64,000 nt of DNA, from positions 2,176,001 through 2,240,000 of the forward strand of contig OZ244561.1 of NCBI GenBank assembly GCA_965217585.1. The letters are read 5' to 3'. Source of the DNA: Candidatus Latescibacterota bacterium. Lineage in GTDB: Bacteria > Latescibacterota > UBA2968 > UBA8231. The notes below the pieces were generated by a model that worked only from the letters and a program-made list of their open reading frames with translations, was not told the DNA's origin and made no database searches. Made by a program: the position numbers and the translations under genes. This document shows, in pieces, positions 23,859 to 62,856 of this stretch (positions within the stretch are counted from its first letter, which is position 1; each line of letters starts with the position of its first letter).

Positions 23859-23865
23859 GGGCGAG

Positions 23866-28822: not shown

Positions 28823-28888
28823 TTCGGAATGTGGCTGTCTGAACTGAGCAAACCCAAACGTACTTCACACATCCCATAGGAGGATGAC

Positions 28889-30115: not shown

Positions 30116-30188
30116 GCTTTCTATTGCGGTACAAGCATTTGCCCGCACAACCCCAAACACACCCTACATATCCATAAAGGGAGATGCA

Positions 30189-31355: not shown

Positions 31356-31438
31356 GCGTTCTACAAGCATTCACCGGAACTACTAGTTTTGAAGGCGGTT
31401 CTGCTAGAGGCGCTGCACCACGAATGAGTTGGGATATT

Positions 31439-34130: not shown

Positions 34131-34752
34131 ATGACCACGAGACGCAACTTCCTCGGCACGGCCGCTTTAGTTGGCACCGCCACGGCAACCTCAACCGCTG
34201 GAAGACTTGCAGGGCAAGCGCGTCTTCACCTTCCCGACAGCAGGCCGCTTCCTCGCCCAATTCGGCGTGGTGCCGGTGACCCTGCCGTGGGAAGACATTG
34301 AAGCCGCTGTGCAGACGGGCAAGCTCGACGGCATCGCTTGGTCTGGGATTACAGAGGACTACACCGTCGGCTGGGCGGACGTGACCAACTACTTCCTCAC
34401 CAACAGTATTTCGGGCGCGTGGGCCGGTTCATTTTTCGCCAACATGGATCGCTGGAACGAACTGCCGGAACATCTGCAGACTATGCTGAAGCTGACCTTT
34501 GACAGCTCGCACTATTACCGCCAGTGGTGGTATTGGGGCGGCGAGGCCAGCCTGCGCGTGAACGGCACGAAGATGAAGCTGACTTCCATTCCGGACCAAG
34601 AGTGGGCGCAAGTCGAGGCCGCGGCGGTTAAATTCTGGGATGAAATCGCCGCCGAGTCCGAGGTCAAAGCCCAGGTCGTCGAGGTCTTCCGCCAGTACAA
34701 TGCCGACATGCAGCAGGCCGGGCGTCCCTACCGCTATGTGTACCACGAATGA
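34131..34752 (+). pseudogene. dctP: TRAP substrate-binding protein (DctP/TakP-like), internally deleted
   Basis: Tat leader MTTRRNFLG in one frame fused out of frame to 'LEDLQGKRVFTFP...QTGKLDG' C-terminal half. Confidence 0.75.
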
Positions 34753-34766
34753 GGAAGGAATCAACC

Positions 34767-35927
34767 ATGCGTTATCTCATGTTAGCAGTTTTTCTGTTTG
34801 CGCCGTTGGCGTATGCCGCGCCACTCGAAGAAGCCCCTGAGGGCAATTACGATTTGGTGGCCGTCGAAGTCGTCCATATACCCGAGGAAGTAGTGGTCTG
34901 GGATAAAGTTGTGTTCGTCCGACATATGACCAACCGAGGCACTGACGCCATTCCCCCCCGCACCTATCGAGTCGATTTGTACGTTGACGACGAGCGCGTC
35001 AGCTACGATTACGGCACGGCAGGTTTGCCGCCGGGCAGACCTAGTACCTACTCAATGTCCGAAGGCTACTATCACTTCATGACGACTGAACCGGGGACGT
35101 ACACATACCGCTGGGTCTTGGACGAGGAAGACAATCTGCCCGAGACGGACGAGACCAATAATGTCATTGAGGGGACCATCGTCGTGTCCGAGCGCTCGGC
35201 TGAGCACGACAGGCTCCAAGCGGCCCTGCTAGATCAGCTCGAACTCATAGGCAAAAATATGGTGGACGGGCACTATCCCCCCGAACTCGAACTTGGCCCG
35301 GATTCAACCCACAAAGAGTTACAGTGGTTCACAGATTTGTTTGACGACTTCGAGGTTATAGTGTACTCGGGGGACTATTATCGTAACTACCTAACGCCCC
35401 GAGAGTCCGCTCCTCCGGGGGGAAAGGCCACTCACCGCTTGGATCTCAGAAATACGAGTGCGAGCGAATGGCCAGAGTTGTTCGTCCAGTATTTCGACGG
35501 GCAGGAATGGGCAAAACAGGCCACCAGCGAATTCGACAGGGATAATCAGGTTACAACATTAACCTTCAGGGTGGCTCACGACGAGCAAACAGGTACTTTC
35601 CGTCTGCTGGAATCGAGCAGGGTGAGTTATCTTTCCCCGGATGAGGAGGGTTGGCTTGGCGTATTGTTGATCGAGGGCGAGGGTGGTGTGGTCGTCCACC
35701 AAGTAGAGGACGGCAGTCCCGCGCAAGAGGCTGGCTTTGAAGAAGGCGACATTTTGCTCACCCTAGCAGGGAAACCCATAATTTCCCGATCCCAACTAAA
35801 CTTCCTACTGAGGCGTATGAAACCCGGTACTGAAGTTGCGTTCGGACTCGTGCGCAATGGTGCCCAAATAGAGAAGACGGTACAGTTGGGGACTCGACCC
35901 AGGCCCCGCCGACTAGGCCGCGAATGA
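34767..35927 (+). CDS. Secreted CARDB-like + PDZ domain protein
   Basis: Signal peptide; 'LD..DNLPETDETNN' CARDB end; 'WLGV...V..GSPAQEAG...GDI' PDZ. Confidence 0.75.
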   Translation: MRYLMLAVFLFAPLAYAAPLEEAPEGNYDLVAVEVVHIPEEVVVWDKVVFVRHMTNRGTDAIPPRTYRVDLYVDDERVSYDYGTAGLPPGRPSTYSMSEGYYHFMTTEPGTYTYRWVLDEEDNLPETDETNNVIEGTIVVSERSAEHDRLQAALLDQLELIGKNMVDGHYPPELELGPDSTHKELQWFTDLFDDFEVIVYSGDYYRNYLTPRESAPPGGKATHRLDLRNTSASEWPELFVQYFDGQEWAKQATSEFDRDNQVTTLTFRVAHDEQTGTFRLLESSRVSYLSPDEEGWLGVLLIEGEGGVVVHQVEDGSPAQEAGFEEGDILLTLAGKPIISRSQLNFLLRRMKPGTEVAFGLVRNGAQIEKTVQLGTRPRPRRLGRE

Positions 35928-44388: not shown

Positions 44389-46554
44389 TCAATAGGCGAC
44401 GGCAAAGACGCCTTGTTGGGTGTGTTGCTCCTCGGAATCGAGAGTCAATTCGTAGATATAGGTGCCGGGCTGAACCAAGGCGTCCTGCCCGTCGTGGCCA
44501 TTCCACTGCTGGATAAAGACACCGCTGCGGGCCTTGAACACCGGTAGATGCGCCACCAGTCGGCCCGCCAAGTCGTAGATGCGCACCTGCACCGGCCGGT
44601 CGGCGGTGACCTCGCGCAGCTTGTAGGTGATGGTCAGGATATCGTTGATCCCGTCGCCGTTGGGCGTGAACATCTGGGGCACAGCCACATCCACCAGCAG
44701 ATCACCCCCCACCGGCGTGTTGACCGCCAGCAAGTTGCCAGCAAAGCGGAACGTGGCGTTGCCCGGATCGATGCGCTGCCGGATCTGATCGGGATCCGTG
44801 CTGCTGAACACCCAACCGCTGAACTCGGTGCCGAAACGCAGCACCGGCACGTCGAAGTCGACCTCGACCTGCTTGAAGCTGTCGGCGCTGCCGGTCAGCG
44901 GCGGGAAGGACACGATGAGGCGATCATCGAGCAGATGCGGGACGAACTGGTCTAAGTCCACTGGCTGCCCATCAAGGCGCACCGAACGCACCGCGTGCGC
45001 CCGGACATGGGTGAGGATTTCCAAGCGGTCAAAGCCAGCATTGTCGTCGCTGAGGGTGGGCAGGACCACATAGGTAAAGGGCGTCGGTTCAAAGGAGGCG
45101 ACCTCGATAGGCCAGATCTCACCGACGAGGGCTTGAGCCGACAGGGTCTCGCTCAATTGCAGGGTGAGTTGATCGAGGCGGGGTGCCGCATGGAAGTCGG
45201 CAAAGAGCTTGATGGCGATTTGGATGTAGCGGCTGGGGCCGGGCGACAGCAGTAGGATGCCGTCCTGCCAGGCGCGGGCGGGCTGGTTGGGGTTGCGCTG
45301 GCCGGCGGCAAACTCGTAGGGCGACGACCAGAAGCTCCAGTGGTCGGCATCATAGACGGGCAGCAGTTGGGCGGATCTGTCGATCTTGTCGTATTGGGTG
45401 CGGGTGATGGGTACGAGTTCGTCGTTGATATTGGGGGCGAAGTAGAGCTGGGGATCGGGGGTGTGGCCGGTGCGGGTGCGAATCTCGATGCGGGTGCCGT
45501 CGAGCACCTCTCCTTCCCAGCGGATTTTGCCCCAGGTGACGGCTTGGCCGAAGTCGAGGATGGGGGAGAGGTAGGTCGTCTCGTGGACATAGCCGTCGCC
45601 GTAGATTTCGAATTCGGCGATTTCATAGTCGCGCAGGGGGAAGGTGCGCAGCGTGAGCCAGCGGGTGGAGCGGGTGGGAAAGCGCAGGTCGACGACGGGA
45701 TCGAGGTTTTCGCGAGTGGATTCCAGCACCGTCAGCAGTGGATCGCCATTGCGCACCCATCGCAAGTCGCCCAAGACGGTGCGCCGTTTGCTCGTCGCTA
45801 CATCGCTGGAAATCCCCGCTCTACACACGCTGCAGGTGAGACTACCACTACCGCTGCAGGGGTCCGGGGCAAAGACGACCGAATTGTCGCCGGTGCGGAT
45901 CTCATACCAAGCGAGGAAGTTGGCCAAGAAGCTGTCTTCGCCAAAGCTCTCCACCTCCGGCATGGGCACGTCCATAGTCTGGATCAACTGGTGATCCTCC
46001 CTTTGGCTCAGGCGGGGATAGAAGCGGATGCGGTTGATCGGCACACCAGCACCAAAATCGAAGACCACGGAATTGGTCCAGGTATAGCCCACGCCCGGCG
46101 GCGAGCCGACCCGTTGGACAAAGGTGCGGAAGGCGGCTGTAGTCGGATCACCGTCCAGCATTAGCTTGATCGAAGGTTGAAAATTGCCCCAAGCAATACA
46201 GTGATCCGTGCTGAGGACTCTGGAGCCGGGGATATAGGGCAAGGGAATGCTGGTCCTGCCGGCATTGACATCGGCCCGGGCGATATTGACGCTGGGGTCA
46301 ATGAGCCGAGGTTGGATCGAGGTGCCGGAAAAGTCGATCAGGGTATCAGCCCCCGCGCCAAAGGGCGAGAGCCCTACCGATACTTGGCGCTCGACTTGGC
46401 CGTCGGCAGCAAAAGCCTGGTAGACGCTTTCCCCGGCTAGGATGGCCTGCCAGGGATTGCCATCGGTCCCACCTAAGCGGTATTCCGTCCCCCCCAACAC
46501 GGGCGCAGCACCGAGCAAGACGCCGCAAAAACAGAGCAATATTATGCCTGCCAT
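44389..46554 (-). CDS. Same family, tandem duplicate copy A
   Basis: 721 aa, about 45 substitutions versus 42111-44276 by manual count (~94% identical); period 2278 bp. Confidence 0.8.
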   Translation of the reverse strand: MAGIILLCFCGVLLGAAPVLGGTEYRLGGTDGNPWQAILAGESVYQAFAADGQVERQVSVGLSPFGAGADTLIDFSGTSIQPRLIDPSVNIARADVNAGRTSIPLPYIPGSRVLSTDHCIAWGNFQPSIKLMLDGDPTTAAFRTFVQRVGSPPGVGYTWTNSVVFDFGAGVPINRIRFYPRLSQREDHQLIQTMDVPMPEVESFGEDSFLANFLAWYEIRTGDNSVVFAPDPCSGSGSLTCSVCRAGISSDVATSKRRTVLGDLRWVRNGDPLLTVLESTRENLDPVVDLRFPTRSTRWLTLRTFPLRDYEIAEFEIYGDGYVHETTYLSPILDFGQAVTWGKIRWEGEVLDGTRIEIRTRTGHTPDPQLYFAPNINDELVPITRTQYDKIDRSAQLLPVYDADHWSFWSSPYEFAAGQRNPNQPARAWQDGILLLSPGPSRYIQIAIKLFADFHAAPRLDQLTLQLSETLSAQALVGEIWPIEVASFEPTPFTYVVLPTLSDDNAGFDRLEILTHVRAHAVRSVRLDGQPVDLDQFVPHLLDDRLIVSFPPLTGSADSFKQVEVDFDVPVLRFGTEFSGWVFSSTDPDQIRQRIDPGNATFRFAGNLLAVNTPVGGDLLVDVAVPQMFTPNGDGINDILTITYKLREVTADRPVQVRIYDLAGRLVAHLPVFKARSGVFIQQWNGHDGQDALVQPGTYIYELTLDSEEQHTQQGVFAVAY

Positions 46555-46644: not shown

Positions 46645-48762
46645 TTAGTAGGCCACTCCCACAAGGTGGGCCTTTTCCTCGACCTTGGCGTCTCCCTTGA
46701 CTTTGATGTGCACGACATAGAGTCCCGGCGGCACTAGCTGCCCATGCTCATTGCGGCCGTCCCAGGTCTTGTCCGTGTACTGCCCATTGGCCTCGGGGCC
46801 GTCGTGGATGACCCGGATCTGGCGTCCGCTTAAATCGTACACCCCAATTGCCACGGGTCGGACGATACTCAGGGATAGCAGATTGTAGCTCATCCCCATC
46901 ACATCATTAGCTCCGTCTCCGTTGGGGCTAAAGATATTGGGCTCGATAAGTATCTGGTCGAGCAGTTTGGTCTTTTCGAGCACCGAGGGACTCAGCACCG
47001 TGGTACCGGATAAATCGGCCTCGTCCCCTTCACCCAACAAAACTGCATCACCCGGAATAATGGCCTGCGAGGCCCCTAATTCGGTAGATAGCTGGATCGA
47101 ACCAGTGAAGTTTGTGCTGTAGGTCAGAACTCCGGTCTGGAAGCGGAGGAGAACCACAATATTATCTTCTCTCACCGGCGGTAGACGTACCGAAAAACTG
47201 GAAGGGGATACCGAGACGATCTGGAAGCCCCCCTCAGTAGACGAATCATCTAGACCAGAAAAAGTCTGCTCAGCGATGATTTGGCCGCTGGAATCCCTCA
47301 TTTCTATCCCGTCTATGCTTTCCACTTGGCTGACTGTGGAAATCTTCACTGTATCAAAACCGAGCAAGCCGTTGGTCTGAGCCACGGTGCGCAGGGCATA
47401 GGTGAAGGACGTCCTCTGGGAAACCGGCACATCCCGGGGAAAAATTTCGCCGATAACGGCATCGGCTAGAGGGGGTGCCAGCACGTCAAAACTCAAGTTC
47501 TTGAGCACCCGCCCTGCATCCAGATCACTGCTGTTGAAAATTACTCGAAACTGAAAATAGCGCCGCGGTCCGGGTGAGGTAATGGGTGAGCCGGTCGTAT
47601 CGTTGGCTGCACTGGCGGGAAGCGGCGTGCTGAACGGACTCCAGTTGACTAGATCGTCCCGAACCGGTCCGTGCTCCCATTGGCGGCCCAATTCGTCGTC
47701 GAGCGGCAGTGCTTTGTACTCTTCCAAATCCAGTTCCTGTCCCGGGTTATTTACCGAGAGCGAAATTTCTGTGGGATTGCGCTGGCCGTAGAGCAGACGA
47801 GTAAAGACCAATGGGTTAGTATCCCTGCCTGTGCGGGTGCGAATCTGGATATTGGAAAAGGCTGGATCGCCAATTGCTTCTTCCTGCCAGCGGAGTATGC
47901 TCCACACCGCAGGCTGGCCCACATCGAAAATAGGTGAAATATACTCGGCGTTGGACAAAAAGCCCGTACCGAATACCTCGATCTCGTCGATCTCGTAGTT
48001 GACCGTGGTCGTCGCCCGCAAGCGCAGGGCCTTGACAGAGCGCGGTGGGTCCATGACTACATCAACAACTGGATTCTCGTTATCGGGTTCTAGGAGCAGT
48101 GGGTCCCAGATGAGCTTGCCTCCTTCGGTCTGACTGCCATCGTTGGTGAACAGTTCAAAGGCCCGCAAAAAATCGTTGTGGAATGGGGTGGTAGGCGATG
48201 GGAAAACCGTATTGCGGGGATAGAAGCGAACGCGATTTACCCCAAAGAGTCCCCCCAACTCGACGAATATTAGGGTTCCCAAGGCATTGTAATTCTTGCG
48301 TTCGAACGCTTTTATTTCGCCGCCATCCTTCGTTTCGATGAGTTCCTCCAAGGTGATCCGCAGGTCGTTTTTGTCAAAAATGCCGGCGGCGAAGCCGCCC
48401 AAGTCAAAGACATTGGGTGCCTCTATACCACCCCCGCGTCTCAGGGCGGTATTGGCGATATTCTCGCCATCTGGAATGCGCAGAGGATGGATACTACCGG
48501 GGAATTGGTCGCTCTCAAACTCGATCAAATTGCCGGGCGAGTTGCCCACCAGCAGTTCCACGCCCGGCACATCGTCGTTTTGGAAAAGGGATCGGTACTG
48601 AGGCTCGATAGTCTCCACCGAGGACGAACCTTCACCGCGCCAGTTGAGCGAGCCGTTCTCTCCAAGACTCACCGTCTCCAGCGCTACCGCCCAACGGCAG
48701 AGGGACAGGATACCAATCCAAATTAAGATGGCCTGTCTTGAGGATACTGTATTCTTAAGCAT
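46645..48762 (-). CDS. Secreted discoidin-like + FlgD-Ig protein (diverged paralog)
   Basis: 'VNRVRFYPR', 'IRTRTG', 'SPGPRRYFQ', 'GEIFP', 'FSPNGDG'; ends VAY. Confidence 0.8.
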   Translation of the reverse strand: MLKNTVSSRQAILIWIGILSLCRWAVALETVSLGENGSLNWRGEGSSSVETIEPQYRSLFQNDDVPGVELLVGNSPGNLIEFESDQFPGSIHPLRIPDGENIANTALRRGGGIEAPNVFDLGGFAAGIFDKNDLRITLEELIETKDGGEIKAFERKNYNALGTLIFVELGGLFGVNRVRFYPRNTVFPSPTTPFHNDFLRAFELFTNDGSQTEGGKLIWDPLLLEPDNENPVVDVVMDPPRSVKALRLRATTTVNYEIDEIEVFGTGFLSNAEYISPIFDVGQPAVWSILRWQEEAIGDPAFSNIQIRTRTGRDTNPLVFTRLLYGQRNPTEISLSVNNPGQELDLEEYKALPLDDELGRQWEHGPVRDDLVNWSPFSTPLPASAANDTTGSPITSPGPRRYFQFRVIFNSSDLDAGRVLKNLSFDVLAPPLADAVIGEIFPRDVPVSQRTSFTYALRTVAQTNGLLGFDTVKISTVSQVESIDGIEMRDSSGQIIAEQTFSGLDDSSTEGGFQIVSVSPSSFSVRLPPVREDNIVVLLRFQTGVLTYSTNFTGSIQLSTELGASQAIIPGDAVLLGEGDEADLSGTTVLSPSVLEKTKLLDQILIEPNIFSPNGDGANDVMGMSYNLLSLSIVRPVAIGVYDLSGRQIRVIHDGPEANGQYTDKTWDGRNEHGQLVPPGLYVVHIKVKGDAKVEEKAHLVGVAY

Positions 48763-53970: not shown

Positions 53971-56900
53971 CTAGTAGACGACGGAAAGCAGACGGGTTTG
54001 GGTGGACTCGCCTTCTTGGTTGTCTACATCCAGTTCTAGCTGGCAGAGGTAGAGCCCGGGTGCCACTTTTTGGCCGTTGCCGTCTTCGCCAGACCAGCGA
54101 ATTGAAACGTGGCCGCTGTCGAGCATCTGCGTCGTCTCCCATACCGAGCGGCCATCCAAAGTGAAAATCTTCACCTTCACTTGGCGGCTGGCAGTTACTT
54201 TGAAGATGGAGAAGCGAATCACCACCTCGTCGTTGATGCCATCCCCATTAGGGGTGAAGGGATTGGGGTCTAGACTAAATTTATCGATGGGCTTACTCTC
54301 TAACGGCACATTGATAGAAAGGGAATTGCTCCCCACCAAAGGGGTCGCATCGCCGGCAGCGATGCTCTGCCATGGAGCATCAGCGCCACTGCTGGTATTG
54401 CGTACAGCTAGGCGCAGAGTAGTGCCATTGAGAAAGACCGGTGCCCTATAGCGCATCCGTACCAGCGGACCTCGGCCGACTATGTTGCCTTTTATCCTGC
54501 TGGAGAGGCGGTTGTAGGCGGCAACATCGAGGGAATCGCCCACCTCGTCGAAGGGGAACTGAGCCCCCGCCCCGTTCAGCAGCCTAAAGAAGCGCACGGA
54601 GCCTTGCTCCTCCTCTTCGAGGGCAAGGTAGGAGGCCTGATCGATGGAGTTGCCCTCTGCATCGAAATAGAGAATATCTCCCTTTTCCTCGTCTTCGAGC
54701 AGCCCGTAAGAATCCCCCGAAAGCAGCAAGCCGTCCCCTGTTACCGGGACTTGATCCCCTTCTGTGGTGATTTTGTTATAGATTTTGGGCAAATCGGAGA
54801 GGCTATGGAGTGGGGTGGGTAGTTGCACCCAGATGGAATCGGAGCCAGTGGTAGGACCCAAGAACCGGAGCAACCCACCGTTTTCGTCGACGAAACTTCC
54901 CTCTTCAATGGGAAGGAAAACTTGGTCTTCCCCATCGGTCTGGGGATCGGTGTCTAGGCCCACCTCAAGGAGTTCCATGCTTTGGGAGGCGGGCATGGTC
55001 AGCAGGATTTCATCGAACCCAGTACTGCGCGCTGCAGAAGGACTTTCGATAAAATTGGGTTGGATAAATACTTCAAAGGTATCGACGATGCCCGGAGTGG
55101 GAATATCAATGGGCCACATTTCGGCCAAAACGAGTTCGGCCACAGGGGTGGCCATCTCAATGCCGATGGATTGTATGGCGGCGGCGGCATTTTGGTCGGT
55201 CGTGATCATTTTGACTTGGATCTGCATGAACTTCCGCAGCCCAGGGGAGGTCACTGGATCTCCCGGGTTCTGGTAGGCCCGGCTCCAGGGACTCCAACCT
55301 CTCGTCGGGATAAAGGTGGTATCCGCCGGACCTTTGAAACTGCCGATGAGATTCTTCCAAACGTCGGCGGTAATTTTCGTACCACCTTTGTCGAAATAGC
55401 GGATTTCCTTGGCCAGCAGATCGCCAGTGCGGGTGCGCACCTCCAGTGTGGTCCCTGGCGGAGTCTCTGCTTCCCAAGTGATACCGCCAAAATTCCGCGT
55501 CCCCGGCAGTTCGATCAGATCCGAGACCAACTCTACTGCAGCCGGATAGCCATTTGAGAAGAGTTGGTATTCGGAAACATTCGGACCAGCGGCATAACCG
55601 CCCCGGCGGTTGGGGTCATCGGAGACGATGGTTATTTCCAAGAAGCGCACTTTGGGAGGGGGCTGGTACACGTCCATTATGTGCTCGAACAGATCTGCTA
55701 GGTTGTGTTCTCGAGCCCGGGCACTTATGCGTCGCCATTTGATCCGGCCGCTAGAATCCCGCGACCCGTCCGAGCCGCGCAGAATATAGCCATCGATGTT
55801 AAGCCGAGGCAGGGAGGAGGACATGCGAAAGGTGTCCAACCAGAAAGTAGCCCCCATATCCACGAACAGAACCCCCCGGTCCACCGTCGGAGACCAGACT
55901 AGGTGGATAAAATTGGTGCCTCCATCCCCGTCAAATGCCGGGGCCGGAGAAAAGGAATCGTTGGCCCCATGGAAAGCGGCCGAGCCGCCCCCTGCTACGA
56001 GCGCCGGGCTGAGATTGTCCCCAAATCCCCAGACTTGGATGTCGGCTAGCCGGGGCCGCTCGCGGATGTAGTGCTCTATTTTGCCTTGGCGTTCGGGCGA
56101 CAGACCGTCGTAGACAGATTTTTCAACAGGTTCTTCGAATCCCCGCTGGTTCTTAATAAAATGGACAACATCTCCCCGATCTGCCCGGTTCAGAGCAGAC
56201 CATTCCTCCTCTGAAATCAATTTGCGCCGGCCGAATTTGGAATCGGTTACTACAATGCGGATTATCTGGACGGTTTCCCCAGTCCAGTTGGGATCGGCCT
56301 TGAATTGGTCTAGCTGGAAAGAGAACACCCGCTGGTCCTCGTTGGAGCTTTTGGTGCCGCCTTCGCGGCGAAAGGGAATTTTTCTCACCTCTTGGTTGAT
56401 AATCTTTTGGAAAGGGGCGCTCAATATTCTGAACTGGCGGAAGGGATCGCCCAACGACTCATCGACAAAATTTAAGACCAACTCGTCGACGGGCAGGCTC
56501 CGGCCGAGGTCCACCTCGACCCACCAGTCCTCTATGGGGTCGTTGAAGTCGGGTTCCCAGAAGGTGCTGGGGTCGCCGTCCAGAATGTTGGCCGCCGCCC
56601 TGGGATTGGATCCGACGCGACTGATACCTATGCGGGATAGGTAGGTGTAGAGGGGATTTTTCTTGCGGTCGCGTATGATATTGCCGAAGACATCCAGCGT
56701 TTCGGTGCTGTCGATATTCAAGACGGCGGTCTGATTTTTCTTGCGCCTAAAATCCAACAAGCGGCGAGTATAGGTTCCCAAGTCGTCTAGGACATTGAAT
56801 CGGGAGCGGGAAAAGTGGGGCTGGACGCCGCCGGAGGGGAGTATGTCCACGGCATGTCCGGGCATACTCCAACGCTCCCAGTGGGCTGGGGAGTTGACAA

Positions 56901-57030
56901 TGATCTGGTTGCCGACGATCCGGTATCCCCGCTTCTGAGCTTCAGTAGGCTGGGGTGGGACGAGGTTCAGACCGAGCAAAGAGATGAGAATCAGGGCAGG
57001 GTAGTGTGAGCGGTAACTCGGGTGTCTCAT
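53971..57030 (-). CDS. Large secreted protein with two discoidin-like domains and FlgD-Ig C-terminal domain
   Basis: RBS GGAGG before ATG 57030; 'LDGDPSTFW...WWVEVDLG', 'VRTRTG', 'SPGLRKFMQ', 'PNPFTPNGDG'; ends VVY. Confidence 0.8.
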   Translation of the reverse strand: MRHPSYRSHYPALILISLLGLNLVPPQPTEAQKRGYRIVGNQIIVNSPAHWERWSMPGHAVDILPSGGVQPHFSRSRFNVLDDLGTYTRRLLDFRRKKNQTAVLNIDSTETLDVFGNIIRDRKKNPLYTYLSRIGISRVGSNPRAAANILDGDPSTFWEPDFNDPIEDWWVEVDLGRSLPVDELVLNFVDESLGDPFRQFRILSAPFQKIINQEVRKIPFRREGGTKSSNEDQRVFSFQLDQFKADPNWTGETVQIIRIVVTDSKFGRRKLISEEEWSALNRADRGDVVHFIKNQRGFEEPVEKSVYDGLSPERQGKIEHYIRERPRLADIQVWGFGDNLSPALVAGGGSAAFHGANDSFSPAPAFDGDGGTNFIHLVWSPTVDRGVLFVDMGATFWLDTFRMSSSLPRLNIDGYILRGSDGSRDSSGRIKWRRISARAREHNLADLFEHIMDVYQPPPKVRFLEITIVSDDPNRRGGYAAGPNVSEYQLFSNGYPAAVELVSDLIELPGTRNFGGITWEAETPPGTTLEVRTRTGDLLAKEIRYFDKGGTKITADVWKNLIGSFKGPADTTFIPTRGWSPWSRAYQNPGDPVTSPGLRKFMQIQVKMITTDQNAAAAIQSIGIEMATPVAELVLAEMWPIDIPTPGIVDTFEVFIQPNFIESPSAARSTGFDEILLTMPASQSMELLEVGLDTDPQTDGEDQVFLPIEEGSFVDENGGLLRFLGPTTGSDSIWVQLPTPLHSLSDLPKIYNKITTEGDQVPVTGDGLLLSGDSYGLLEDEEKGDILYFDAEGNSIDQASYLALEEEEQGSVRFFRLLNGAGAQFPFDEVGDSLDVAAYNRLSSRIKGNIVGRGPLVRMRYRAPVFLNGTTLRLAVRNTSSGADAPWQSIAAGDATPLVGSNSLSINVPLESKPIDKFSLDPNPFTPNGDGINDEVVIRFSIFKVTASRQVKVKIFTLDGRSVWETTQMLDSGHVSIRWSGEDGNGQKVAPGLYLCQLELDVDNQEGESTQTRLLSVVY

Positions 57031-57368
57031 ATGGGCCTCCTGTGCGCATATCGACCGCATCAACCGCGCAGGACCTGCAGCATTGTGTTTTAGCACTACG
57101 ATGTCAGAGCGAACGAGCCCGGCTATCCCACAGGTAAAGGCGCTGGAGATAGTTGCACCAAAGCGGGATCTGGGTACGGAAGTTACTCAGGTATTGCAAG
57201 TCCGTTTGGCATTGTAGTAGGTACCGACATGCTGTCAGAGCCGAGAATGTACGAGATATATTAATAAATATATGTTATTGTAAACAAATTTTTTTAGAAT
57301 CGGCGGGTGCTGGAAGGCGTGATCTCCGCCGCCAGCTTGAAGACATGAAGCTAGCCGGGTGCCTCGAT

Positions 57369-59018
57369 TTAGTTTTGGGCCAGCAATAGGGAGTCGGGTA
57401 CCGCTTCCTTGAGGCGATCGGGGTAGATTTTGATCTGGTCGGCGTATTTCTCCCTCAGTTGCACCAGAAAGGCATTTAGCGCTTGGGTCTCCCGCTCTAG
57501 ACGGACCAGTGCCCAGGCCTGTCGCTGAGCAGTCTCAAAAGGTTCGATGCTGCTTTCTTCCCGTTCTAGGACGCGGAATACAGAGTAGCCTCCCTCTACT
57601 TGCAAAGGACCTTCAAGTAGGCCCTGTTGGGCTTGGAAAACAGCGGGTACAAGCACGGGATAGCGGACTTTTCCCAGCATGTGGAAATGATATCGCCCAT
57701 TGTATTTTTGTGCGTCTGCCCTCAAACTCTTATCGACGAATTGATCAAAGGGTGCACCTGCTTCTATTTGGGCTTTGACCTGCAGGGCGTCTGCCTGAGT
57801 GGGGAGCAGCACTTCCTCAACCCATATGGCCTCGCTGTGGCGGAAGGTCTCCAAATGGGTGTCGTAATAGTGGCGCACGTCTTCTTCGGAGAGGTCAACT
57901 AGGTCGGCTATGACGCTCTTTCTCACGGTTTCAAGAAGTTTGTCACTCGCGGTGCGCTCGACAAACTTCTGAATCTCGGGCGTTTGGTAAAAACCGCCTT
58001 TCCGGGCTGCTTCCTGGACCAGATGGACCTCCAAAAAATACCGATTCAGGGTGCCCACAGCTTGGGCGCTGTCGGCAAGGCCAAAACTGATGTTCCTCTG
58101 ACGCAAGAATTCCTGGACCTGACCCAGGGTTACTTCGCCGCCTCTATAGGTATATAAAGCCGTTGAATTTCCCTCTATGCGCGTGGGTTGCTTTGCCTTA
58201 TAGGCGTTGACCAACTTGCGCAGACCGGACGGGTTTAGGCGCACGTTGAAGGAATCGCGCAGTTGCTCCAAGTGCTCGGCCTCTACCTGGGCAAGGCGCT
58301 TTTGGTAGAGTAGACTGGCAATCCTCGCTTGGTATTTCTCATAAGAGGCAGGGCGGTCTTCACTAAAGCGCAGAATATGCCAAGCAGAACCGGCGGGCAG
58401 GGGCTCTGAGAGTTGATCTTGAGGCAGGGTCTTGAAGACCTCCGGTGGGATGTGAAGCAACTCGAGCTGGTCCCGGCCGATAAAGCCCAACTCGCCACCC
58501 CGTTCGGCCGAGCGCTTGTCCAGAGAGCGAGCCTGGGCGACTTCCTCGAAGGAGCGGCCTGCCCTCAGTTCCTGAAGAACGGTGTCGATGGCAGCTCGGC
58601 TCGCTGCTTTGATGGCGTTGAGCAGGCGCTCTCGGCCGTAGCCTTCCTTTTCGAAATAGCGCTGTACTGCCTCATTTGATATTTTGACTTTAGAAGTTAT
58701 CTCCTGTGCTTTATATACTGACCTGACCCGAGAATTGACGGCGTCTTGGACTGAATTTTGAAAGGTGTTAGTGGTAGCGAATCCTCGGGAACGGGCCTCT
58801 ATCAGCAAAAGTCGGCGGTCTATCAGGGCTTGGAGATAGTAGCGGAGGGCCTCATCGCCTGTCTTTTGGGTCCGTAGTCCGTCGGGCAGTTCCTCCACGT
58901 AGAGGCGCAACAGGCGTGCATTGATCTGGTGCGGGCCAACTTCCGCCACGAGAGGTTCTTGAGGAGGGCTTTTGCAGCTAAGCGAAAGAACTAAGCAGGC
59001 CAGTAGGAGGTGTTTCAT
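57369..59018 (-). CDS. SurA/PrsA-like parvulin PPIase lipoprotein (two rotamase domains)
   Basis: Lipobox LSLSC; 'FEEVAQARS.D..SAERGGELG', second 'FD....S....G.Y' domain. Confidence 0.85.
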   Translation of the reverse strand: MKHLLLACLVLSLSCKSPPQEPLVAEVGPHQINARLLRLYVEELPDGLRTQKTGDEALRYYLQALIDRRLLLIEARSRGFATTNTFQNSVQDAVNSRVRSVYKAQEITSKVKISNEAVQRYFEKEGYGRERLLNAIKAASRAAIDTVLQELRAGRSFEEVAQARSLDKRSAERGGELGFIGRDQLELLHIPPEVFKTLPQDQLSEPLPAGSAWHILRFSEDRPASYEKYQARIASLLYQKRLAQVEAEHLEQLRDSFNVRLNPSGLRKLVNAYKAKQPTRIEGNSTALYTYRGGEVTLGQVQEFLRQRNISFGLADSAQAVGTLNRYFLEVHLVQEAARKGGFYQTPEIQKFVERTASDKLLETVRKSVIADLVDLSEEDVRHYYDTHLETFRHSEAIWVEEVLLPTQADALQVKAQIEAGAPFDQFVDKSLRADAQKYNGRYHFHMLGKVRYPVLVPAVFQAQQGLLEGPLQVEGGYSVFRVLEREESSIEPFETAQRQAWALVRLERETQALNAFLVQLREKYADQIKIYPDRLKEAVPDSLLLAQN

Positions 59019-59119
59019 CTAATTTTTTTCTGTCTACGGAAACCAAAAATTTCAATTGATCTGAATTATGGGCTAAATAGTGCAAGGTGAACATAGAAGA
59101 ATAGCTAAAATATATCAAA

Positions 59120-60016
59120 ATGGTCAAGGTGATGAACTTCCGTGTGAAGGCGAGCAGAGGTGTTTTTGGGGGACCCCTGATCGCTCTGCTGTTAAGCGTC
59201 CAAGGGACGATGGGGCAAGTGCCCGAGGTGGGTGATCTAGCGCCGGATTTCACTTTGCAGCAGCTAGAGGGCGACTATGTGTCTCTGAACGACTTCCGCG
59301 GCAAGGTGGTCCTTATCAACTTCTTCGGTTTCATCTGAAGTCACTGTCTCGCGGAGGCCGCGAAGATAGAGCAGATTTGGCAGGATTTTAAAGGGGAGGA
59401 ATTCGTCTTGATTGGCGTGGATGTAGCGGACGGCATCAGCCAACAGGTGGACTTGAGTTTTCGCCAGAGAACAGGAACGACCTACCCTCTTCTTCTCCAG
59501 GCCAGTACAGTAGGATCCCTCTATGGTTTTACCCAGCATAACTATGCGGTGATCGACCACGAGGGGATTTTGCGCTATCGTTCGGTGGGCGCTGTTGCCC
59601 GCCGGTTCAACGAACAGGTTATCCGCCAGCACATCGAGCAGGCGCTAGATAACTTGGGCGCGACGCTTGTGGCTGGAGATAAGGAACGGGAACTGCTAGC
59701 GGAGACCGCAGGGCTGGAGATGTCGGATGGGCAACCAAGGAATTTTGAGTTAGAGAAGAATTACCCCAATCCCTTTAATAGCGGCACGGTCATCCCTTTT
59801 AGCTTGTCCAGTGAAACAGAAGTGCATTTGCAGGTTTTCGATGTACTGGGACGGCCTGTGGTCAATCTGGTGGTTGGGCTGTTGCAGACCGGTCGTTATA
59901 GGGTAAATTGGGAAGGCCGGGACGCCGGAGGGCAGCCGGTACCCTCCGGCATCTACCTTTACCGTTTGAGTAGCGGGAAGAGAACAAAGAGCCGCAAGAT
60001 GACGCTCGTGCGGTAA
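59120..60016 (+). CDS. Predicted selenoprotein: AhpC/TlpA-like redoxin (U-S-H-C) fused to a FlgD/secretion CTD
   Basis: ORFs 59120-59338 and 59408-60016 share a frame and are separated only by TGA 59336-38: 'GKVVLINFFGFI-U-SHCLAEA'; tail 'NYPNPFN...W.G.D..G..V.SG.Y.YRL...RKMTLVR'. Confidence 0.85.
59344..59369 (+). promoter_or_regulatory. Bacterial SECIS-like hairpin
   Basis: CTGTC-TCGCGG-agg-CCGCGA-a-GATAG starting 6 nt after the UGA, G-containing apical loop. Confidence 0.65.
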
Positions 60017-60045
60017 AAAGAGAGCAGGCTCAACAAACTCCAGCT

Positions 60046-62856
60046 TCACGGTGAGGTGCGCGATTTCTCCCTTCGCTGTAAGGCCGCTTGTACTTGGGCG
60101 AGGTTGCGTTTGGCATCGGCGAAGTCAGTTTTGAGTTGGAGTGCTTTTTCGAGATAGAACTGAGCTTCTTTTAGCTTTCCTCGCCGGGCTAGCGCTCCTC
60201 CGAGATTGCTACAGGTTTCCGCCCGATCGGGCTGTAGCCGTAGCGCAGCCTTGTAGTGGTGGATCGCTTCGTCGAGGCGCCCCAATTGGTGGAATGCCAG
60301 AGCCAAGCCGTCCAAGGCCTGTACATCCTGGGGGGCGATTTCTACGACTTGGGTGTAATGGGCCCTCGCTTCTTCAAAGCGGTTCAAGCGCATTAGTACA
60401 TCCGCTAGAGTGCGCCTAGCCACTAGGTGCTCGGGGAGTTGGTGCAGGGCGACTGCCAATAGTCTCGAGGCGTCCAGATAGTTTCGGACGGCGATTAGGA
60501 TTTTGGCTTGCCGGAGGGCGGCGCTAGCGGCAATTTCCCGCAGGTTTTTGGTCCGTATTTCCTCAATGGTCCTCTTTTCATCTGGCCCAATAGGCATCAA
60601 GGTGGCGAAGGGTTCCAAATGCTTTTGCAAAAGATCGAGCGTCGGGAGCGCGTTTGTCCGATTTACAAAGGCTCGAGCGACCGCATAGTCGAGAACGGGC
60701 CGATCGTCTCTGTAGACCGGGGCCTCATTCGCCAGTTTGGCTAGACCACCAGATCCCATCAGATAACTGCCCAAAAAGACCTGTGGTCGATTGAGCCAGT
60801 AGAGGGGGCCTCCCCAGTGGCTGTACTCCAGATCGCGGCGAATTTTTTCGTTGGACAGACGTCCTTCGAGAACGGCCCGATCAATGGCGAAATCCCGTCC
60901 GCCGCCAATGAGCAGCAGTTCTGAAGTATTGTACCACAACAGACTGTGGGGAAAAGCCTCGAGAAAGCTTTGCACAGTGCTGCGGAAATGGTCGGCGGTC
61001 AAGAGAGACAAGGGGACAAATTGGACCAGAAAACCGCCAGCACGCAGCCGTTTTTGCACTTGGTTGTAGAAGTCGACCGTGTAGAAAGACGCCACGCCGG
61101 GACGAGAAAGTTGGCCCAATTCAAGGGAAATCACATCGTATGTCGAAGGGGTATGGCGCAAATAGTTGCGGCCGTCAGCGCCGATCAACTCGACTCTGGG
61201 ATCTTCCATCCAACTGGCGTCGAAATGGGGGCGGATAAAATCGAAGATGGTGGGTTCGATATCGACGCACTCTAAGTGGTCAATAGAGTAAAGCAGAAAG
61301 CGAGCCGCGGTCTGGCCGGTGCCGACGCCCACCAAGAGGACCCGCTTGGGATCGGGATGCAACAACATAGGGACGTGGGCCGCCATTACTTGGTGTGTCT
61401 TGCGGTCCCTACCCTGCCACCAGCGGTTGATCTCGAGTTGAAGTCCTTGATCTTGGCGGATGACCGCCAAGTTGGAGCCGTAGCCTTCGCGGAAGTCGAC
61501 AAGCTCTTCCCGCTCGCCCAGAAAGTCGGCGGGAATACGGGTGGCCATCAGGGAGGGAACTGCGAGCCATAGGCACAAGGAGAGCCCTATGAATGCCGCT
61601 TTAACGGCTAAGGTAGATGTGCGGTCGAGCCAGGTCCACGCAGCGAACCCAACAGCCAAGCTCGTGCCCGTGAGGAAGAGGAGACTGCTCTCCAGGCCGA
61701 AGAATGGCAGGCCCACAAAGCCGATCGCCAACGACCCTGCGATTCCCCCCAATGTGTTGACTGCGGCGATTTTCCCCGTGCCACCGCTCGCCGCGGATGC
61801 GTCCTCGACCACCATTCTCACCGCCAGCGGAAAAGACGCACCTCCTAAAACAGCAGGAGGCAGCAGTAAAACTGCATAAATCCACCACTCCTCCCCCAGA
61901 CGCCGCCAGATGTCAGATGGGAGCATCATTAGGAGGAGTACTACCAGCCCCAAAAACACTTGGATAACGCCGAAATACCGTGCTCTATGTATTGTCCCAT
62001 CAAAGAACAGGGAGGCGAGCACGCTCCCCAACACTAAACCCACTAGCACTACGGCCAAGGTCAGCGTATAAGTGTACACTGTATTGGCGATCAAAAGTCC
62101 CAAATAGCGCGTCCACAGCACCTCGCCTCCCAGCGCTACAAAGCCAACGGCAAAAAACAGCGCAAATACACCCCAATGACCTCTCTCTTCCGTCTCTAGA
62201 AGCCGGAGTCGAGCCAGTCCGCTTCTGGCGATTGGCAGAGACCCTGCGACGATGCCCACGAGCATGTTCAAAACTGCCCCGAGTCGTACTGTGCCCAGAA
62301 AGCCTAGCTCCGGCAAAAGGATGAATCCGGCGCAGACACAACCTAGGGCTGCGCCCAAGGTGTTGATGCCGTAGAGTAAGCCGACGGAACGGGCAATTTT
62401 GGCATCACTGCGCACAAACTGACGACAGAAGAGGGGGAGGGTGGCGCCCATGAGAACCGTCGGCGGCAAGACCACGAATCCCACTAGGACAATCCGAGTC
62501 AGGAAGTGCAAAATGGCGTGCCCAGCCAGGGATTGGTAGACGGTGCCGTAGAGGGAGTCTACCAATTCGAAGGCATATGGACTGGCTAGCACCAAAAGCC
62601 CTAGGCCGATTTCAACCAGAGCAAAAACGAGCAGAGGACGACCGGTCCGCTGACCGTAGCGCCCGAAGAGGTACGAACCGCAGGCTAGGCCTAAGAAGAA
62701 AACCGCTAGGACCGTGCTGAGGGCAAAGGTAGTGGAGCCGAATAGCAATGAAGCTTGGCGGATCCAGACCACCTCGTACACTAGGCCCGCAAATCCAGAG
62801 AGGAAAAAGCAGATGAGCGCAATCAGAAGCTGCACACTACGAGCGCCTGTAGCCAT
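60046..62856 (-). CDS. Fused membrane (MFS-like)/spermidine synthase-like protein with C-terminal TPRs
   Basis: 'SGFAGLVYEVVW', 'LYGINTLGA', 'VLLVGVGTGQT', 'DIE', 'DGRNYL', TPRs. Confidence 0.85.
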   Translation of the reverse strand: MATGARSVQLLIALICFFLSGFAGLVYEVVWIRQASLLFGSTTFALSTVLAVFFLGLACGSYLFGRYGQRTGRPLLVFALVEIGLGLLVLASPYAFELVDSLYGTVYQSLAGHAILHFLTRIVLVGFVVLPPTVLMGATLPLFCRQFVRSDAKIARSVGLLYGINTLGAALGCVCAGFILLPELGFLGTVRLGAVLNMLVGIVAGSLPIARSGLARLRLLETEERGHWGVFALFFAVGFVALGGEVLWTRYLGLLIANTVYTYTLTLAVVLVGLVLGSVLASLFFDGTIHRARYFGVIQVFLGLVVLLLMMLPSDIWRRLGEEWWIYAVLLLPPAVLGGASFPLAVRMVVEDASAASGGTGKIAAVNTLGGIAGSLAIGFVGLPFFGLESSLLFLTGTSLAVGFAAWTWLDRTSTLAVKAAFIGLSLCLWLAVPSLMATRIPADFLGEREELVDFREGYGSNLAVIRQDQGLQLEINRWWQGRDRKTHQVMAAHVPMLLHPDPKRVLLVGVGTGQTAARFLLYSIDHLECVDIEPTIFDFIRPHFDASWMEDPRVELIGADGRNYLRHTPSTYDVISLELGQLSRPGVASFYTVDFYNQVQKRLRAGGFLVQFVPLSLLTADHFRSTVQSFLEAFPHSLLWYNTSELLLIGGGRDFAIDRAVLEGRLSNEKIRRDLEYSHWGGPLYWLNRPQVFLGSYLMGSGGLAKLANEAPVYRDDRPVLDYAVARAFVNRTNALPTLDLLQKHLEPFATLMPIGPDEKRTIEEIRTKNLREIAASAALRQAKILIAVRNYLDASRLLAVALHQLPEHLVARRTLADVLMRLNRFEEARAHYTQVVEIAPQDVQALDGLALAFHQLGRLDEAIHHYKAALRLQPDRAETCSNLGGALARRGKLKEAQFYLEKALQLKTDFADAKRNLAQVQAALQRREKSRTSP

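What the first reader, a model, noticed from the sequence alone, without database searches (positions are those of the whole stretch)
59120..60016. Hidden secreted selenoprotein: UxxC redoxin fused to a secretion C-terminal domain
Seen: a single in-frame TGA sits exactly at the first Cys position of the thioredoxin-fold CxxC (FI-TGA-SHC), the frame continues 226 codons, and a hairpin with a G-containing loop follows immediately. Known: this is the bacterial Sec-recoding signature. Unusual: signal peptide plus FlgD/T9SS-like CTD implies an extracytoplasmic or surface selenoenzyme, divergently next to the PPIase and near Cys-containing surface proteins. Standard gene callers split it.
Basis: partly seen in the sequence, partly recalled or inferred. 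Interest (0 to 1): 0.75.

Follow-up and report, generated by a model that had tools for sequence, protein, structure and literature searches.

The report
Unannotated selenocysteine redoxin with secretion tail
This gene most likely encodes an exported thioredoxin-fold enzyme whose key cysteine is replaced by selenocysteine, read from a conserved UGA "stop" that public annotations take as the end of the gene, so they record only its tail.

Summary
One frame (59120-60016, +) holds a single TGA at codon 73, at the first position of a thioredoxin-fold UxxC motif.

- **Cys/Sec pair:** 74 of 75 full-length homologues have Cys at that position.
- **Conserved TGA:** all 13 related genomic loci keep it, including one at only 48% identity.
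- **Selection:** both halves of the gene are under purifying selection.
- **Hairpin:** the least variable DNA in the whole gene is the TGA plus a hairpin 5 nt downstream. That hairpin meets the published bacterial SECIS constraints.
- **Protein:** signal peptide, TlpA/ResA-like redoxin domain, linker, and a T9SS type A C-terminal sorting domain.
- **Annotation:** the 68 closest database clusters hold only the 195-203 aa tail.

Three things are not shown:
- Sec machinery. None lies in the window or flanks, and whole genomes could not be scanned.
- Actual selenium insertion.
- Actual T9SS export.

The enzyme class, UxxC Prx-like or redoxin selenoproteins, is already known. The sorting-domain fusion and the lineage (Latescibacterota-labelled MAGs) appear unreported.

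Verdict: a real, probably functional selenoprotein gene, a new variant of a known kind, of moderate interest.

The parts
59120..60016 (+). Full selenoprotein ORF: 298 codons including UGA-73, plus TAA stop
   Evidence: 12 of 12 close loci match residues 1-298 (8-298 in L010) across the TGA. ATG is conserved in 10 of 12 close loci; L005 has GTG and L010 a later start.
59120..59215 (+). Probable Sec-type signal peptide (residues 1-32). Basic n-region, hydrophobic core about residues 14-27, likely cleavage before QV.
   Evidence: By inspection and hydropathy only. Homologues align with an AQV-type junction here. No signal-peptide predictor was available.
59228..59644 (+). TlpA/ResA-like thioredoxin-fold (AhpC-TSA/Redoxin) domain, residues 37-175
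   Evidence: PF00578 scores 59.9 bits (cut-off 26) and PF08534 scores 44.6. PDB sequence hits are 3kcm, 2ls5 and ResA. The AF2 model has pLDDT 88. Foldseek hits to ResA, 2ls5 and 3kcm have TM-scores by target of 0.78-0.88.
59336..59338 (+). UGA codon 73, read as selenocysteine; first position of the U-S-H-C active site
   Evidence: TGA in the window and in 13 of 13 loci. Cys in 74 of 75 full-length homologues. It sits just before helix 74-90 in the model.
59345..59347 (+). Cys76, resolving partner of the UxxC motif
   Evidence: Invariant in 75 of 75 homologues.
59344..59369 (+). SECIS-like hairpin; apical loop AGG at 59355-59357; 16 nt between the UGA and the loop
   Evidence: The four constraints of the bacterial SECIS model quoted in PMC13188914 are met. 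The longest invariant run of the gene (23 nt, 59342-59364) lies here, and all 13 of the 848 26-nt windows with at most 1 variable site overlap TGA plus hairpin. Three pairs change on both sides in L013.
59645..59746 (+). Helical, low-confidence linker (residues 176-209)
   Evidence: AF2 pLDDT is 54-68 in this stretch. It carries indels among close relatives (L002, L011).
59747..60013 (+). C-terminal beta-sandwich: T9SS type A sorting domain / FlgD_ig (residues 210-298)
   Evidence: TIGR04183 scores 42.6 bits (cut-off 23). PF18962 scores 29.0 (cut-off 27) and PF13860 scores 32.0 (cut-off 27). pLDDT is 94-98.
59408..60016 (+). The 202-aa fragment that table-11 gene calling and public records report instead of the full gene
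   Evidence: P0002 is 99% identical and 202 aa. P0019, P0049 and P0050 are named 'T9SS type A sorting domain-containing protein'.
57369..59018 (-). Divergent neighbour: 549-aa parvulin-type PPIase (SurA/PrsA-like). Context only.
   Evidence: The neighbourhood is conserved in 12 of 12 close loci.

Best explanation
The region is one gene for a roughly 30-kDa precursor with four parts: a signal peptide, a TlpA/ResA-like thioredoxin-fold domain with active site Sec73-Ser-His-Cys76, a linker, and a T9SS type A C-terminal sorting domain.

Shown here:
- The UGA is conserved and lies exactly at the catalytic-Cys position.
- Both halves evolve as coding sequence in one frame.
- The RNA just downstream is under extra nucleotide-level constraint and can form a SECIS-compatible hairpin.

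Inferred:
- SelB carrying Sec-tRNA(Sec) binds that hairpin while the ribosome is at UGA and inserts selenocysteine.
- The precursor crosses the inner membrane by the Sec pathway and is then handed to a T9SS-like system through its C-terminal domain, ending on the cell surface or outside.
- There, or in the periplasm on the way, the selenol of U73 attacks substrate disulfides or oxidised thiols, and C76 resolves the intermediate into a selenosulfide.

My split on chemistry is about 0.55 thiol-disulfide reductase or isomerase, 0.25 peroxide or sulfenate reductase, and the rest other. The electron donor is unknown.
For: - **TGA position:** single TGA at codon 73 in FGFI-U-SHC.
- **Cys in homologues:** Cys at this column in 18 of 18 and 74 of 75 full-length homologues. 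Cys76 is in 75 of 75.
- **TGA in other genomes:** the same codon is TGA in 13 of 13 loci from other genomes, including L013 at 48% identity with a different motif, FGYD-U-HFC.
- **Selection:** pN/pS is 0.28 upstream of the TGA, 0.19 in the downstream redoxin part and 0.33 in linker plus C-terminal domain.
- **Divergence:** gene identity is 85-92%, like its syntenic neighbours at 84-98%.
- **Nucleotide constraint:** the 13 least variable 26-nt windows out of 848 all overlap TGA plus hairpin, and the longest invariant run (23 nt) is the hairpin. Codons 75-81 are invariant even at four-fold sites, while codons 65-71 all vary synonymously.
- **SECIS model (PMC13188914):** the hairpin meets it, with a 3-nt loop that has G at position 2, an upper stem of at least 5 bp, 16-nt spacing and -14.8 kcal/mol.
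- **Covariation:** 3 base pairs change on both sides in L013.
- **No false positives at real stops:** 0 of 27 ordinary TGA stops in the window pass the same filter.
- **TGA is otherwise a stop:** 27 of 41 ORFs end in it.
- **Truncated homologues:** 26 of 26 fetched start after position 73. In the tree, 20 of 27 rows (26 truncated plus the window protein) form one group with no full-length Cys form inside.
- **Fold and domains:**
Against: - **No Sec machinery seen:** no selA, selB or selD hit among 44 window ORFs or 4 flank ORFs. No tRNA at all in the window or the 13 loci. Whole genomes could not be scanned.
- **Earlier survey of the phylum:** Peng et al. 2016, supplementary file 2, scored 5 of 5 WS3 (Latescibacteria) single-cell genomes and Gemmatimonas aurantiaca negative for SelD and Sec. 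These are partial genomes from other lineages.
- **Weak specificity of the SECIS criteria:** 189 of 1865 other TGA trinucleotides pass my filter, 53 of them at -14 kcal/mol or lower.
- **Marginal geometry:** the loop is the minimum 3 nt and the spacing the minimum 16 nt.
- **Thin covariation:** all three both-side changes come from one sequence, L013.
- **Unstable lower stem:** in L002, L007, L011 and L012 a G-to-A change breaks one lower-stem pair. The folds of L002 (z = -0.38) and L013 (z = -0.75) are not better than shuffles.
- **No Rfam match:** no SECIS family matches.
- **Secretion not established:** no T9SS core gene was recognised in the window, and no paper links this phylum with T9SS.
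- **Atypical active-site surroundings:** His140 aligns with the cis-Pro of 3kcm, so the active site is not a textbook TlpA.
Confidence: 0.78

Rival explanations
1. The UGA is translated, but not as selenocysteine. A suppressor or unusual tRNA, or hairpin-stimulated near-cognate read-through, inserts Cys, Trp or another residue at this one site.
For: No Sec machinery was seen in any DNA examined. The phylum was scored Sec-negative in 5 of 5 partial genomes in Peng 2016, supplementary file 2. tRNA-Cys-like species with a UCA anticodon have been described in other bacteria; this is recalled and comes from no call.
Against: The site is the catalytic Cys column, the classic Sec/Cys pair. A plain TGC or TGT would serve if Cys were wanted, yet TGA is kept in 14 of 14 genomes. 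TGA is the commonest ordinary stop here, ending 27 of 41 ORFs, so a general suppressor is unlikely. The hairpin fits the SelB-type model.
Confidence: 0.1
2. The gene is broken or genuinely split. Translation stops at codon 73, and at most the 202-aa tail from TTG 59408 is made, as public annotation implies.
For: Table-11 ORF calling gives this picture. The 68 closest database clusters are recorded this way.
Against: The same 'break' is kept in 14 of 14 genomes down to 48% identity. The 72 upstream codons are under purifying selection, pN/pS 0.28. The tail would start inside the thioredoxin fold, lacking strand 1, the active site, helix 1 and any signal peptide. A secretion C-terminal domain without a signal peptide makes no sense. 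Codons 74-96, between the TGA and the TTG, are conserved as protein.
Confidence: 0.03
3. It is the same selenoprotein, but it stays in the periplasm or on the inner face of the outer membrane. In this phylum the Por_Secre_tail/FlgD_ig domain would be a structural or anchoring module, not a T9SS export signal, and the enzyme would work like ordinary periplasmic TlpA, ResA or CcmG fed by a CcdA/DsbD-type reductant.
For: No T9SS core component was recognised among 44 window ORFs. No paper was found on T9SS in this phylum. A surface-exposed redoxin has no obvious electron donor. The homologue in L013 has the Sec redoxin but no C-terminal domain.
Against: TIGR04183 is matched well above its cut-off, 42.6 against 23 bits. 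Four neighbouring large proteins carry the CHU_C type B sorting domain, which suggests a working sorting system with many cargoes. The redoxin plus C-terminal domain architecture is kept across distant Cys and Sec forms.
Confidence: 0.3

Closest known systems
Prx-like thiol:disulfide oxidoreductase and 'Redoxin family protein' selenoproteins (PF00578 / PF08534, UxxC), as tabulated in the 2026 review PMC13188914 (passages seen)
   Same: Same Pfam families above gathering score. Same UxxC motif with Sec at the first position. Predicted from an in-frame UGA plus a downstream hairpin plus Cys homologues.
   Different: The table does not mention a C-terminal sorting domain. I could not retrieve the exemplar accessions to compare architecture or identity. 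The lineage here (Latescibacterota-labelled MAGs) is not named in the passages I saw.
ResA (Bacillus subtilis) and TlpA/CcmG-type extracytoplasmic thiol-disulfide reductases, with structural neighbours 3kcm and 2ls5
   Same: Thioredoxin fold with a central insertion. The active-site dipeptide motif sits at the N-terminus of helix 1. The location is extracytoplasmic. Foldseek TM-scores by target are 0.78-0.88, and phmmer E-values run from 5e-17 to 1e-7.
   Different: Sec replaces the first Cys. The motif is FI-U-SH-C rather than W-C-x-P-C. His aligns with the cis-Pro of 3kcm. The NCBIfam ResA subfamily score of 54.9 is far below its cut-off of 170. There is an extra C-terminal sorting domain.
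Cys-containing redoxin plus T9SS C-terminal domain proteins of Balneolaceae and relatives (for example P0103, P0112, P0119)
   Same: Same three-part architecture and length class (262-275 aa). They are 33-41% identical over 88-100% of the query, with CxxC in the same column.
   Different: They have Cys, not Sec, at position 73, mostly as CPHC or CPFC. They are annotated full-length in public records.
ResA-like WAxxUGC selenoprotein family (NCBIfam NF041054) and the UGC-containing TlpA family (cd02966)
   Same: TlpA/ResA-like fold carrying Sec.
   Different: NF041054 scores only 20.2 bits against a cut-off of 300. The motif and the position of Sec within it differ.
Surface-exposed thioredoxin-family lipoproteins Etrx1/Etrx2 of Streptococcus pneumoniae (PDB 2yp6, 4hqz)
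   Same: Thioredoxin-family redoxins displayed outside the cytoplasmic membrane. They are weak sequence and fold hits. They serve as a working analogy for an extracellular redox-defence role; what I know of their function is recalled, not from a call.
   Different: They are lipid-anchored and Gram-positive, use Cys, and have a known CcdA-type electron supply. None of that is shown here.

Membership tests
Bacterial selenoprotein gene (SelB/SECIS-dependent UGA recoding) | In-frame UGA aligned with a conserved, functionally important Cys in homologues | tested here: met
   Cys in 74 of 75 full-length homologues, with one Tyr, and in 18 of 18. The column is the first Cys of the CxxC of ResA and 3kcm.
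Bacterial selenoprotein gene (SelB/SECIS-dependent UGA recoding) | UGA and the reading frame on both sides conserved among orthologues | tested here: met
   TGA in 13 of 13 loci. pN/pS is 0.28 upstream and 0.19-0.33 downstream.
Bacterial selenoprotein gene (SelB/SECIS-dependent UGA recoding) | Downstream hairpin meeting the bacterial SECIS model: loop 3-9 nt, upper stem 4-16 bp, G in the first two loop positions, 16-37 nt spacing, MFE -7.5 kcal/mol or lower | tested here: met
   Loop AGG, at least 5 bp, 16 nt, -14.8 kcal/mol. Criteria are from PMC13188914. The filter is weakly specific, since 10% of other TGAs pass. Extra support comes from nucleotide invariance and 3 compensatory pairs from one sequence. 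bSECISearch itself was not run.
Bacterial selenoprotein gene (SelB/SECIS-dependent UGA recoding) | selA, selB, selC (tRNA-Sec) and selD present in the genome | not testable with these tools
   None in the 64-kb window or the flanks.
Bacterial selenoprotein gene (SelB/SECIS-dependent UGA recoding) | Selenium actually incorporated (75Se labelling or mass spectrometry) | not testable with these tools
   Needs an experiment.
TlpA/ResA-like thiol-disulfide oxidoreductase (PF00578/PF08534, cd02966 type) | Thioredoxin fold with the redox dipeptide motif at the N-terminus of helix 1 | tested here: met
   AF2 pLDDT is 94-98 over residues 41-150, and U73 directly precedes helix 74-90. The top Foldseek hits are ResA, 2ls5 and 3kcm.
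TlpA/ResA-like thiol-disulfide oxidoreductase (PF00578/PF08534, cd02966 type) | Profile score above the curated cut-off | tested here: met
   PF00578 scores 59.9 against 26, and PF08534 scores 44.6 against 26.6.
ResA proper (NCBIfam NF002854 subfamily) | Score above the curated cut-off | tested here: not met
   54.9 bits against a cut-off of 170. It is ResA-like, not ResA.
TlpA/ResA-like thiol-disulfide oxidoreductase (PF00578/PF08534, cd02966 type) | Conserved cis-proline loop facing the active site | tested here: inconclusive
   In the phmmer alignment the Pro of 3kcm pairs with His140 of the query. This is a single pairwise alignment, and the model geometry was not inspected.
Peroxiredoxin (Prx/BCP) | PxxxT/SxxC(U) peroxidatic motif | tested here: not met
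   The residues before U73 are N-F-F-G-F-I, with no Pro at -7 and no Thr or Ser at -3. The NCBIfam Prx models score 20-28 bits against cut-offs of 123-270.
T9SS type A cargo | C-terminal sorting domain matching TIGR04183 / PF18962 above cut-off | tested here: met
   TIGR04183 scores 42.6 against 23. PF18962 scores 29.0 against 27. The model shows a confident beta-sandwich.
T9SS type A cargo | N-terminal Sec signal peptide | tested here: inconclusive
   There is a basic n-region and a hydrophobic core at residues 14-27, by eye and hydropathy. No dedicated predictor was available.
T9SS type A cargo | T9SS core machinery encoded in the genome | not testable with these tools
   None was recognised among 44 window ORFs. 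The whole genome could not be read. No paper was found for this phylum.
WAxxUGC ResA-like selenoprotein (NF041054) | Score above cut-off and the WAxxUGC motif | tested here: not met
   20.2 bits against 300. The motif here is FGFIUSHC.

The most novel reading that the evidence does not exclude
A whole clade of Latescibacterota-type bacteria, a phylum scored Sec-negative in the one survey I could check, decodes UGA as selenocysteine and sends a selenoenzyme through a T9SS-type sorting pathway to the cell surface. That would make it the first described T9SS cargo selenoprotein. It would put a selenol catalyst outside the outer membrane with no known electron donor, possibly acting on host or environmental thiols, disulfides or peroxides.
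Probability: 0.3. Interest if true: 0.65.

Novelty: new variant of a known kind. Interest (0 to 1): 0.45.

Why it matters
**Annotation.** The 68 closest database clusters hold only the tail of this gene, and the three that carry a source name are called just 'T9SS type A sorting domain-containing protein'. The redox enzyme is therefore invisible in the public records I saw. About 20 further divergent truncated clusters suggest the same error across a wide clade.

**Biology.** If the Sec machinery is confirmed, selenocysteine use extends to a phylum where it was not recorded. That would also give a natural case of a selenoenzyme targeted beyond the periplasm, which bears on why Sec is retained in oxidising extracellular settings.

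**What is not new.** The core chemistry, a UxxC thioredoxin-fold selenoprotein, is well known. A selenoprotein specialist would find this plausible rather than startling.

Tried and rejected
- **Rfam.** The search of 58900-60200 at E up to 10 gave only two chance-level matches (E 0.81 and 0.98) and no SECIS family.
- **tRNA-Sec.** ARAGORN found no tRNA in the window or in the 13 loci.
- **Sec machinery.** NCBIfam on 44 window ORFs and 4 ORFs of the L001 flank gave no SelA, SelB or SelD.
- **Other hidden selenoprotein genes in the window.** A crude scan for frames with one or two TGAs listed 54 cases. Only the one at 59336 has a redox-motif context. The rest look like off-frame noise or ordinary stops followed by open sequence. 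They were judged by eye, not by homology.
- **Genome-wide TGA reassignment.** Rejected, because 27 of 41 ORFs end in TGA and the homologous residue is Cys.
- **Sequencing error or pseudogene.** Rejected by 14 of 14 independent assemblies and by the selection analysis.
- **Peroxiredoxin membership.** Rejected on the motif.
- **Literature.**
  - Latescibacter* with selenocysteine or selenop*, each with 4 or fewer papers: of the two that I opened, neither links the two; the rest were judged from the listings only.
  - 'selenoprotein' with 'type IX secretion' and 'selenocysteine' with 'T9SS', 2 or fewer papers each: unrelated by title, not opened.
  - Latescibacter* with T9SS or 'type IX secretion': 0 papers.
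  - PMC12013261 (Haft and Tolstoy 2025) is not held.
- **Not run.** No complex prediction was run.
- **Not available.** Their TGA is therefore inferred, not seen.
Full report
**Observation.** The frame from ATG 59120 to the TAA at 60014-60016 on the plus strand has one internal stop, TGA at 59336-59338 (codon 73). Its context is FGFI-U-SHC. Under table 11 the frame falls apart into a 72-aa ORF and a 202-aa ORF starting at TTG 59408.

**What the protein is.**
- Pfam places residues 37-153 in AhpC-TSA (59.9 bits, cut-off 26) and Redoxin.
- Pfam places residues 215-294 in Por_Secre_tail and FlgD_ig.
- NCBIfam gives the T9SS type A sorting domain TIGR04183 at 42.6 bits against a cut-off of 23. ResA-, TlpA- and DsbE-type models all score well below their cut-offs.
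- By sequence, the nearest solved structures are 3kcm, 2ls5 and ResA. U73 lies on the first Cys of their CxxC.
- An AlphaFold2 model built on 76 aligned sequences has mean pLDDT 88. It shows a confident thioredoxin fold (residues about 35-175), with U73 immediately before helix 74-90. A low-confidence helical linker follows, then a confident beta-sandwich (residues about 210-298).
- Foldseek against the PDB returns 2ls5, ResA variants and 3kcm, with TM-scores by target of 0.78-0.88.
- The N-terminus has basic residues and a hydrophobic core at residues 14-27, which fits a signal peptide. This is by eye and hydropathy only.
- The peroxiredoxin PxxxTxxC motif is absent.

**Is the UGA read?** Four independent lines say yes.
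1. *Cys in homologues.* In full-length homologues (33-41% identity, 262-275 aa, same three-part architecture, several named from Balneolaceae) the column of U73 is Cys. That holds in 18 of 18 and in 74 of 75, with one Tyr. The partner Cys76 is present in 75 of 75.
   - Twelve are close relatives (85-92% identity) matching across the TGA.
   - They are titled Candidatus Latescibacterota or 'Gemmatimonadota' MAGs, and eight are chromosomes of 4.6-6.6 Mb.
   - The thirteenth, L013, is only 48% identical.
   - All 13 have TGA at the same codon. L013 has a different motif, FGYD-U-HFC.
3. *Purifying selection on both sides.* Among the window and the 12 close loci, pN/pS is 0.28 for codons 8-72, 0.19 for the redoxin part after the TGA, and 0.33 for linker plus C-terminal domain. 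The gene's divergence matches that of its syntenic neighbours, which are conserved in 12 of 12 close loci.
4. *Truncated database entries.*
   - The 68 closest database clusters (77-99% identity) are all 195-203 aa tails.
   - All 26 more distant truncated homologues that I fetched begin with a start-codon residue after position 73.
   - The FastTree tree used the shared C-terminal 168 columns. Its rows were 75 full-length sequences, 26 truncated ones and the window protein.
   - The 26 truncated rows were 24 of the 26 fetched, leaving out P0126 and P0200 for their odd C-termini, plus P0049 and P0069.
   - In the tree, 20 of the 27 truncated or Sec rows form one group (support 92, below the 95 mark) with no full-length Cys form inside.
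   - The label needs 7 changes against 23.8 in shuffles, and 0 of 500 shuffles are as low.
   - For these distant proteins the TGA is inferred, because no DNA was available.

**The hairpin.** Window 59344-59369 can form an 11-bp stem with one bulged A and the loop AGG. There are 16 nt between the UGA and the loop, and the MFE is -14.8 kcal/mol (z = -2.41; 2 of 200 shuffles). The 2026 review PMC13188914 (passages and the Fig. 2 legend seen) states the bacterial SECIS model. It requires a loop of 3-9 nt, an upper stem of 4-16 bp, G in the first two loop positions, 16-37 nt spacing, and MFE of -7.5 kcal/mol or lower. All four are met, with loop size and spacing at the lower bound.

This alone is weak evidence. 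My crude implementation passes 189 of 1865 other TGA trinucleotides in the window, 53 of them at -14 kcal/mol or lower, although it passes 0 of 27 genuine TGA stops. Conservation adds the weight:
- Of 848 sliding 26-nt windows across the gene, only 13 have at most one variable site among the 13 close sequences. All 13 overlap the TGA and hairpin.
- The longest invariant run of the gene (23 nt, 59342-59364) covers the 5' arm, the loop and most of the 3' arm.
- Codons 75-81 are invariant even at four-fold degenerate sites. Codons 65-71 all show synonymous variants.
- In L013 three stem pairs differ on both sides and still pair: 95.5% of cells are paired, 2 of 500 shuffles reach the observed values, and slid controls give 0-2 such pairs.

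Against this:
- All three compensatory pairs come from one sequence.
- A G-to-A change in L002, L007, L011 and L012 breaks one lower-stem pair.
- The L002 and L013 folds are no better than shuffles.
- Rfam has no match.

**Not a reassigned code, not a wreck.** TGA is the commonest ordinary stop in the window, ending 27 of 41 ORFs. Two other TlpA-like domains in the window use plain Cys, in the motifs WWQTTCSPC and WWQTFCPPC. A scan for other frames bridged by TGA found nothing else with a redox context.

**What could not be shown.** No selA, selB or selD hit and no tRNA were found in the window, in the 13 loci, or in the extra flank of L001. Supplementary file 2 of Peng et al. 2016 (PMC5029168; rows seen) scores 5 of 5 WS3 single-cell genomes and Gemmatimonas aurantiaca negative for SelD and Sec. 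These are partial genomes of other lineages, so the weight is low, but the trait is not on record for the phylum. My searches found no paper linking Latescibacter* with Sec machinery or with T9SS. They also found none linking selenoproteins with T9SS (titles only). T9SS core genes were not recognised in the window, although four neighbouring large proteins carry CHU_C type B sorting domains.

**Mechanism proposed.**
- *Shown:* a conserved, selected UGA at the catalytic-Cys position, and a constrained, SECIS-compatible hairpin.
- *Inferred:*
  - SelB-dependent insertion of Sec.
  - Sec-pathway export, followed by sorting through the C-terminal domain to the surface.
  - U73 acting as the attacking nucleophile, with C76 resolving the intermediate to a selenosulfide.

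On chemistry I favour thiol-disulfide exchange over peroxide reduction. The UxxC motif and the ResA-like fold are present, and the Prx motif is not. His140 at the position of the cis-Pro and the S-H dipeptide make the active site atypical, so I hold this loosely. The reductant is unknown, and for a protein outside the outer membrane that is a real gap.

**Comparison and novelty.** UxxC selenoproteins in PF00578 and PF08534 ('Prx-like thiol:disulfide oxidoreductase', 'Redoxin family protein') and other TlpA-like Sec families are listed in the review's table. Predicted secreted selenoproteins were reported from ocean metagenomes (PMC2398784, passages seen). The kind is therefore known. Three things look new:
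- the fusion to a T9SS-type sorting domain;
- the lineage;
- the fact that no full-length reading appears among the listed database hits, where the nearest full-length entries are at most 41% identical.

I rate it a new variant of a known kind, with moderate interest.

**Limits.**
- The exemplar accessions in the review could not be fetched for comparison.
- The supplements of the review were not consulted.

Noticed in passing
window 42111-44276 (-) and 44389-46554 (-); also 46645-48762 (-) and 53971-57096 (-): A tandem pair of 721-aa proteins is 94% identical (676 of 721), and each ends in a CHU_C / T9SS type B sorting domain. A 705-aa protein and a 1041-aa protein nearby carry the same kind of tail, the latter with an F5/8 type C domain. 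The stretch looks like a cluster of secretion cargo next to TPR proteins.
   Followed up: partly
window 21913-33889 (+): An operon-like run of genes: a HlyD-type adaptor, an ABC ATPase, four FtsX/ADOP-type permease ORFs, and two 408/416-aa proteins ending in Cys-type TlpA-like redoxin domains (WWQTTCSPC, WWQTFCPPC). A SusC/TonB-like outer-membrane protein follows. Its function is unknown.
   Followed up: partly
L013 920 to about 1570 (+): A 48%-identical homologue from an unrelated contig has a signal peptide and a redoxin domain with TGA at the same codon (FGYD-U-HFC). It has no C-terminal sorting domain and ends in a Pro/Arg-rich tail. The Sec form therefore exists in at least two architectures, unless that contig is misassembled.
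   Followed up: partly
window 16956-18374 (-): A 472-aa AAA/ABC-type ATPase matches models for MADS3 and for retron-associated effector ATPases, all below their cut-offs. It may be a defence-system component.
   Followed up: no
window 34749-35927 (+): This is a CARDB plus PDZ protein. Its PDZ part alone hits the 'Trx7/PDZ domain-containing (seleno)protein' model, at 35 bits against a cut-off of 300. No Trx domain and no in-frame TGA were seen, so it is not a second selenoprotein.
   Followed up: partly
window 59537-59539 (codon 140 of the gene): His140 aligns with the cis-proline of the solved homologue 3kcm. In many Cys-containing homologues the neighbouring column carries Arg (consensus YDRS), which recalls peroxiredoxins. 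The active-site surroundings of this family are therefore neither classic Trx nor classic Prx.
   Followed up: no
window 59060-59119 and the same place in L001-L012: A conserved A/T-rich element (aaaatata, then two pyrimidines, then aaa) lies directly upstream of the start codon in the window and the close relatives. No Shine-Dalgarno-like sequence is apparent.
   Followed up: no
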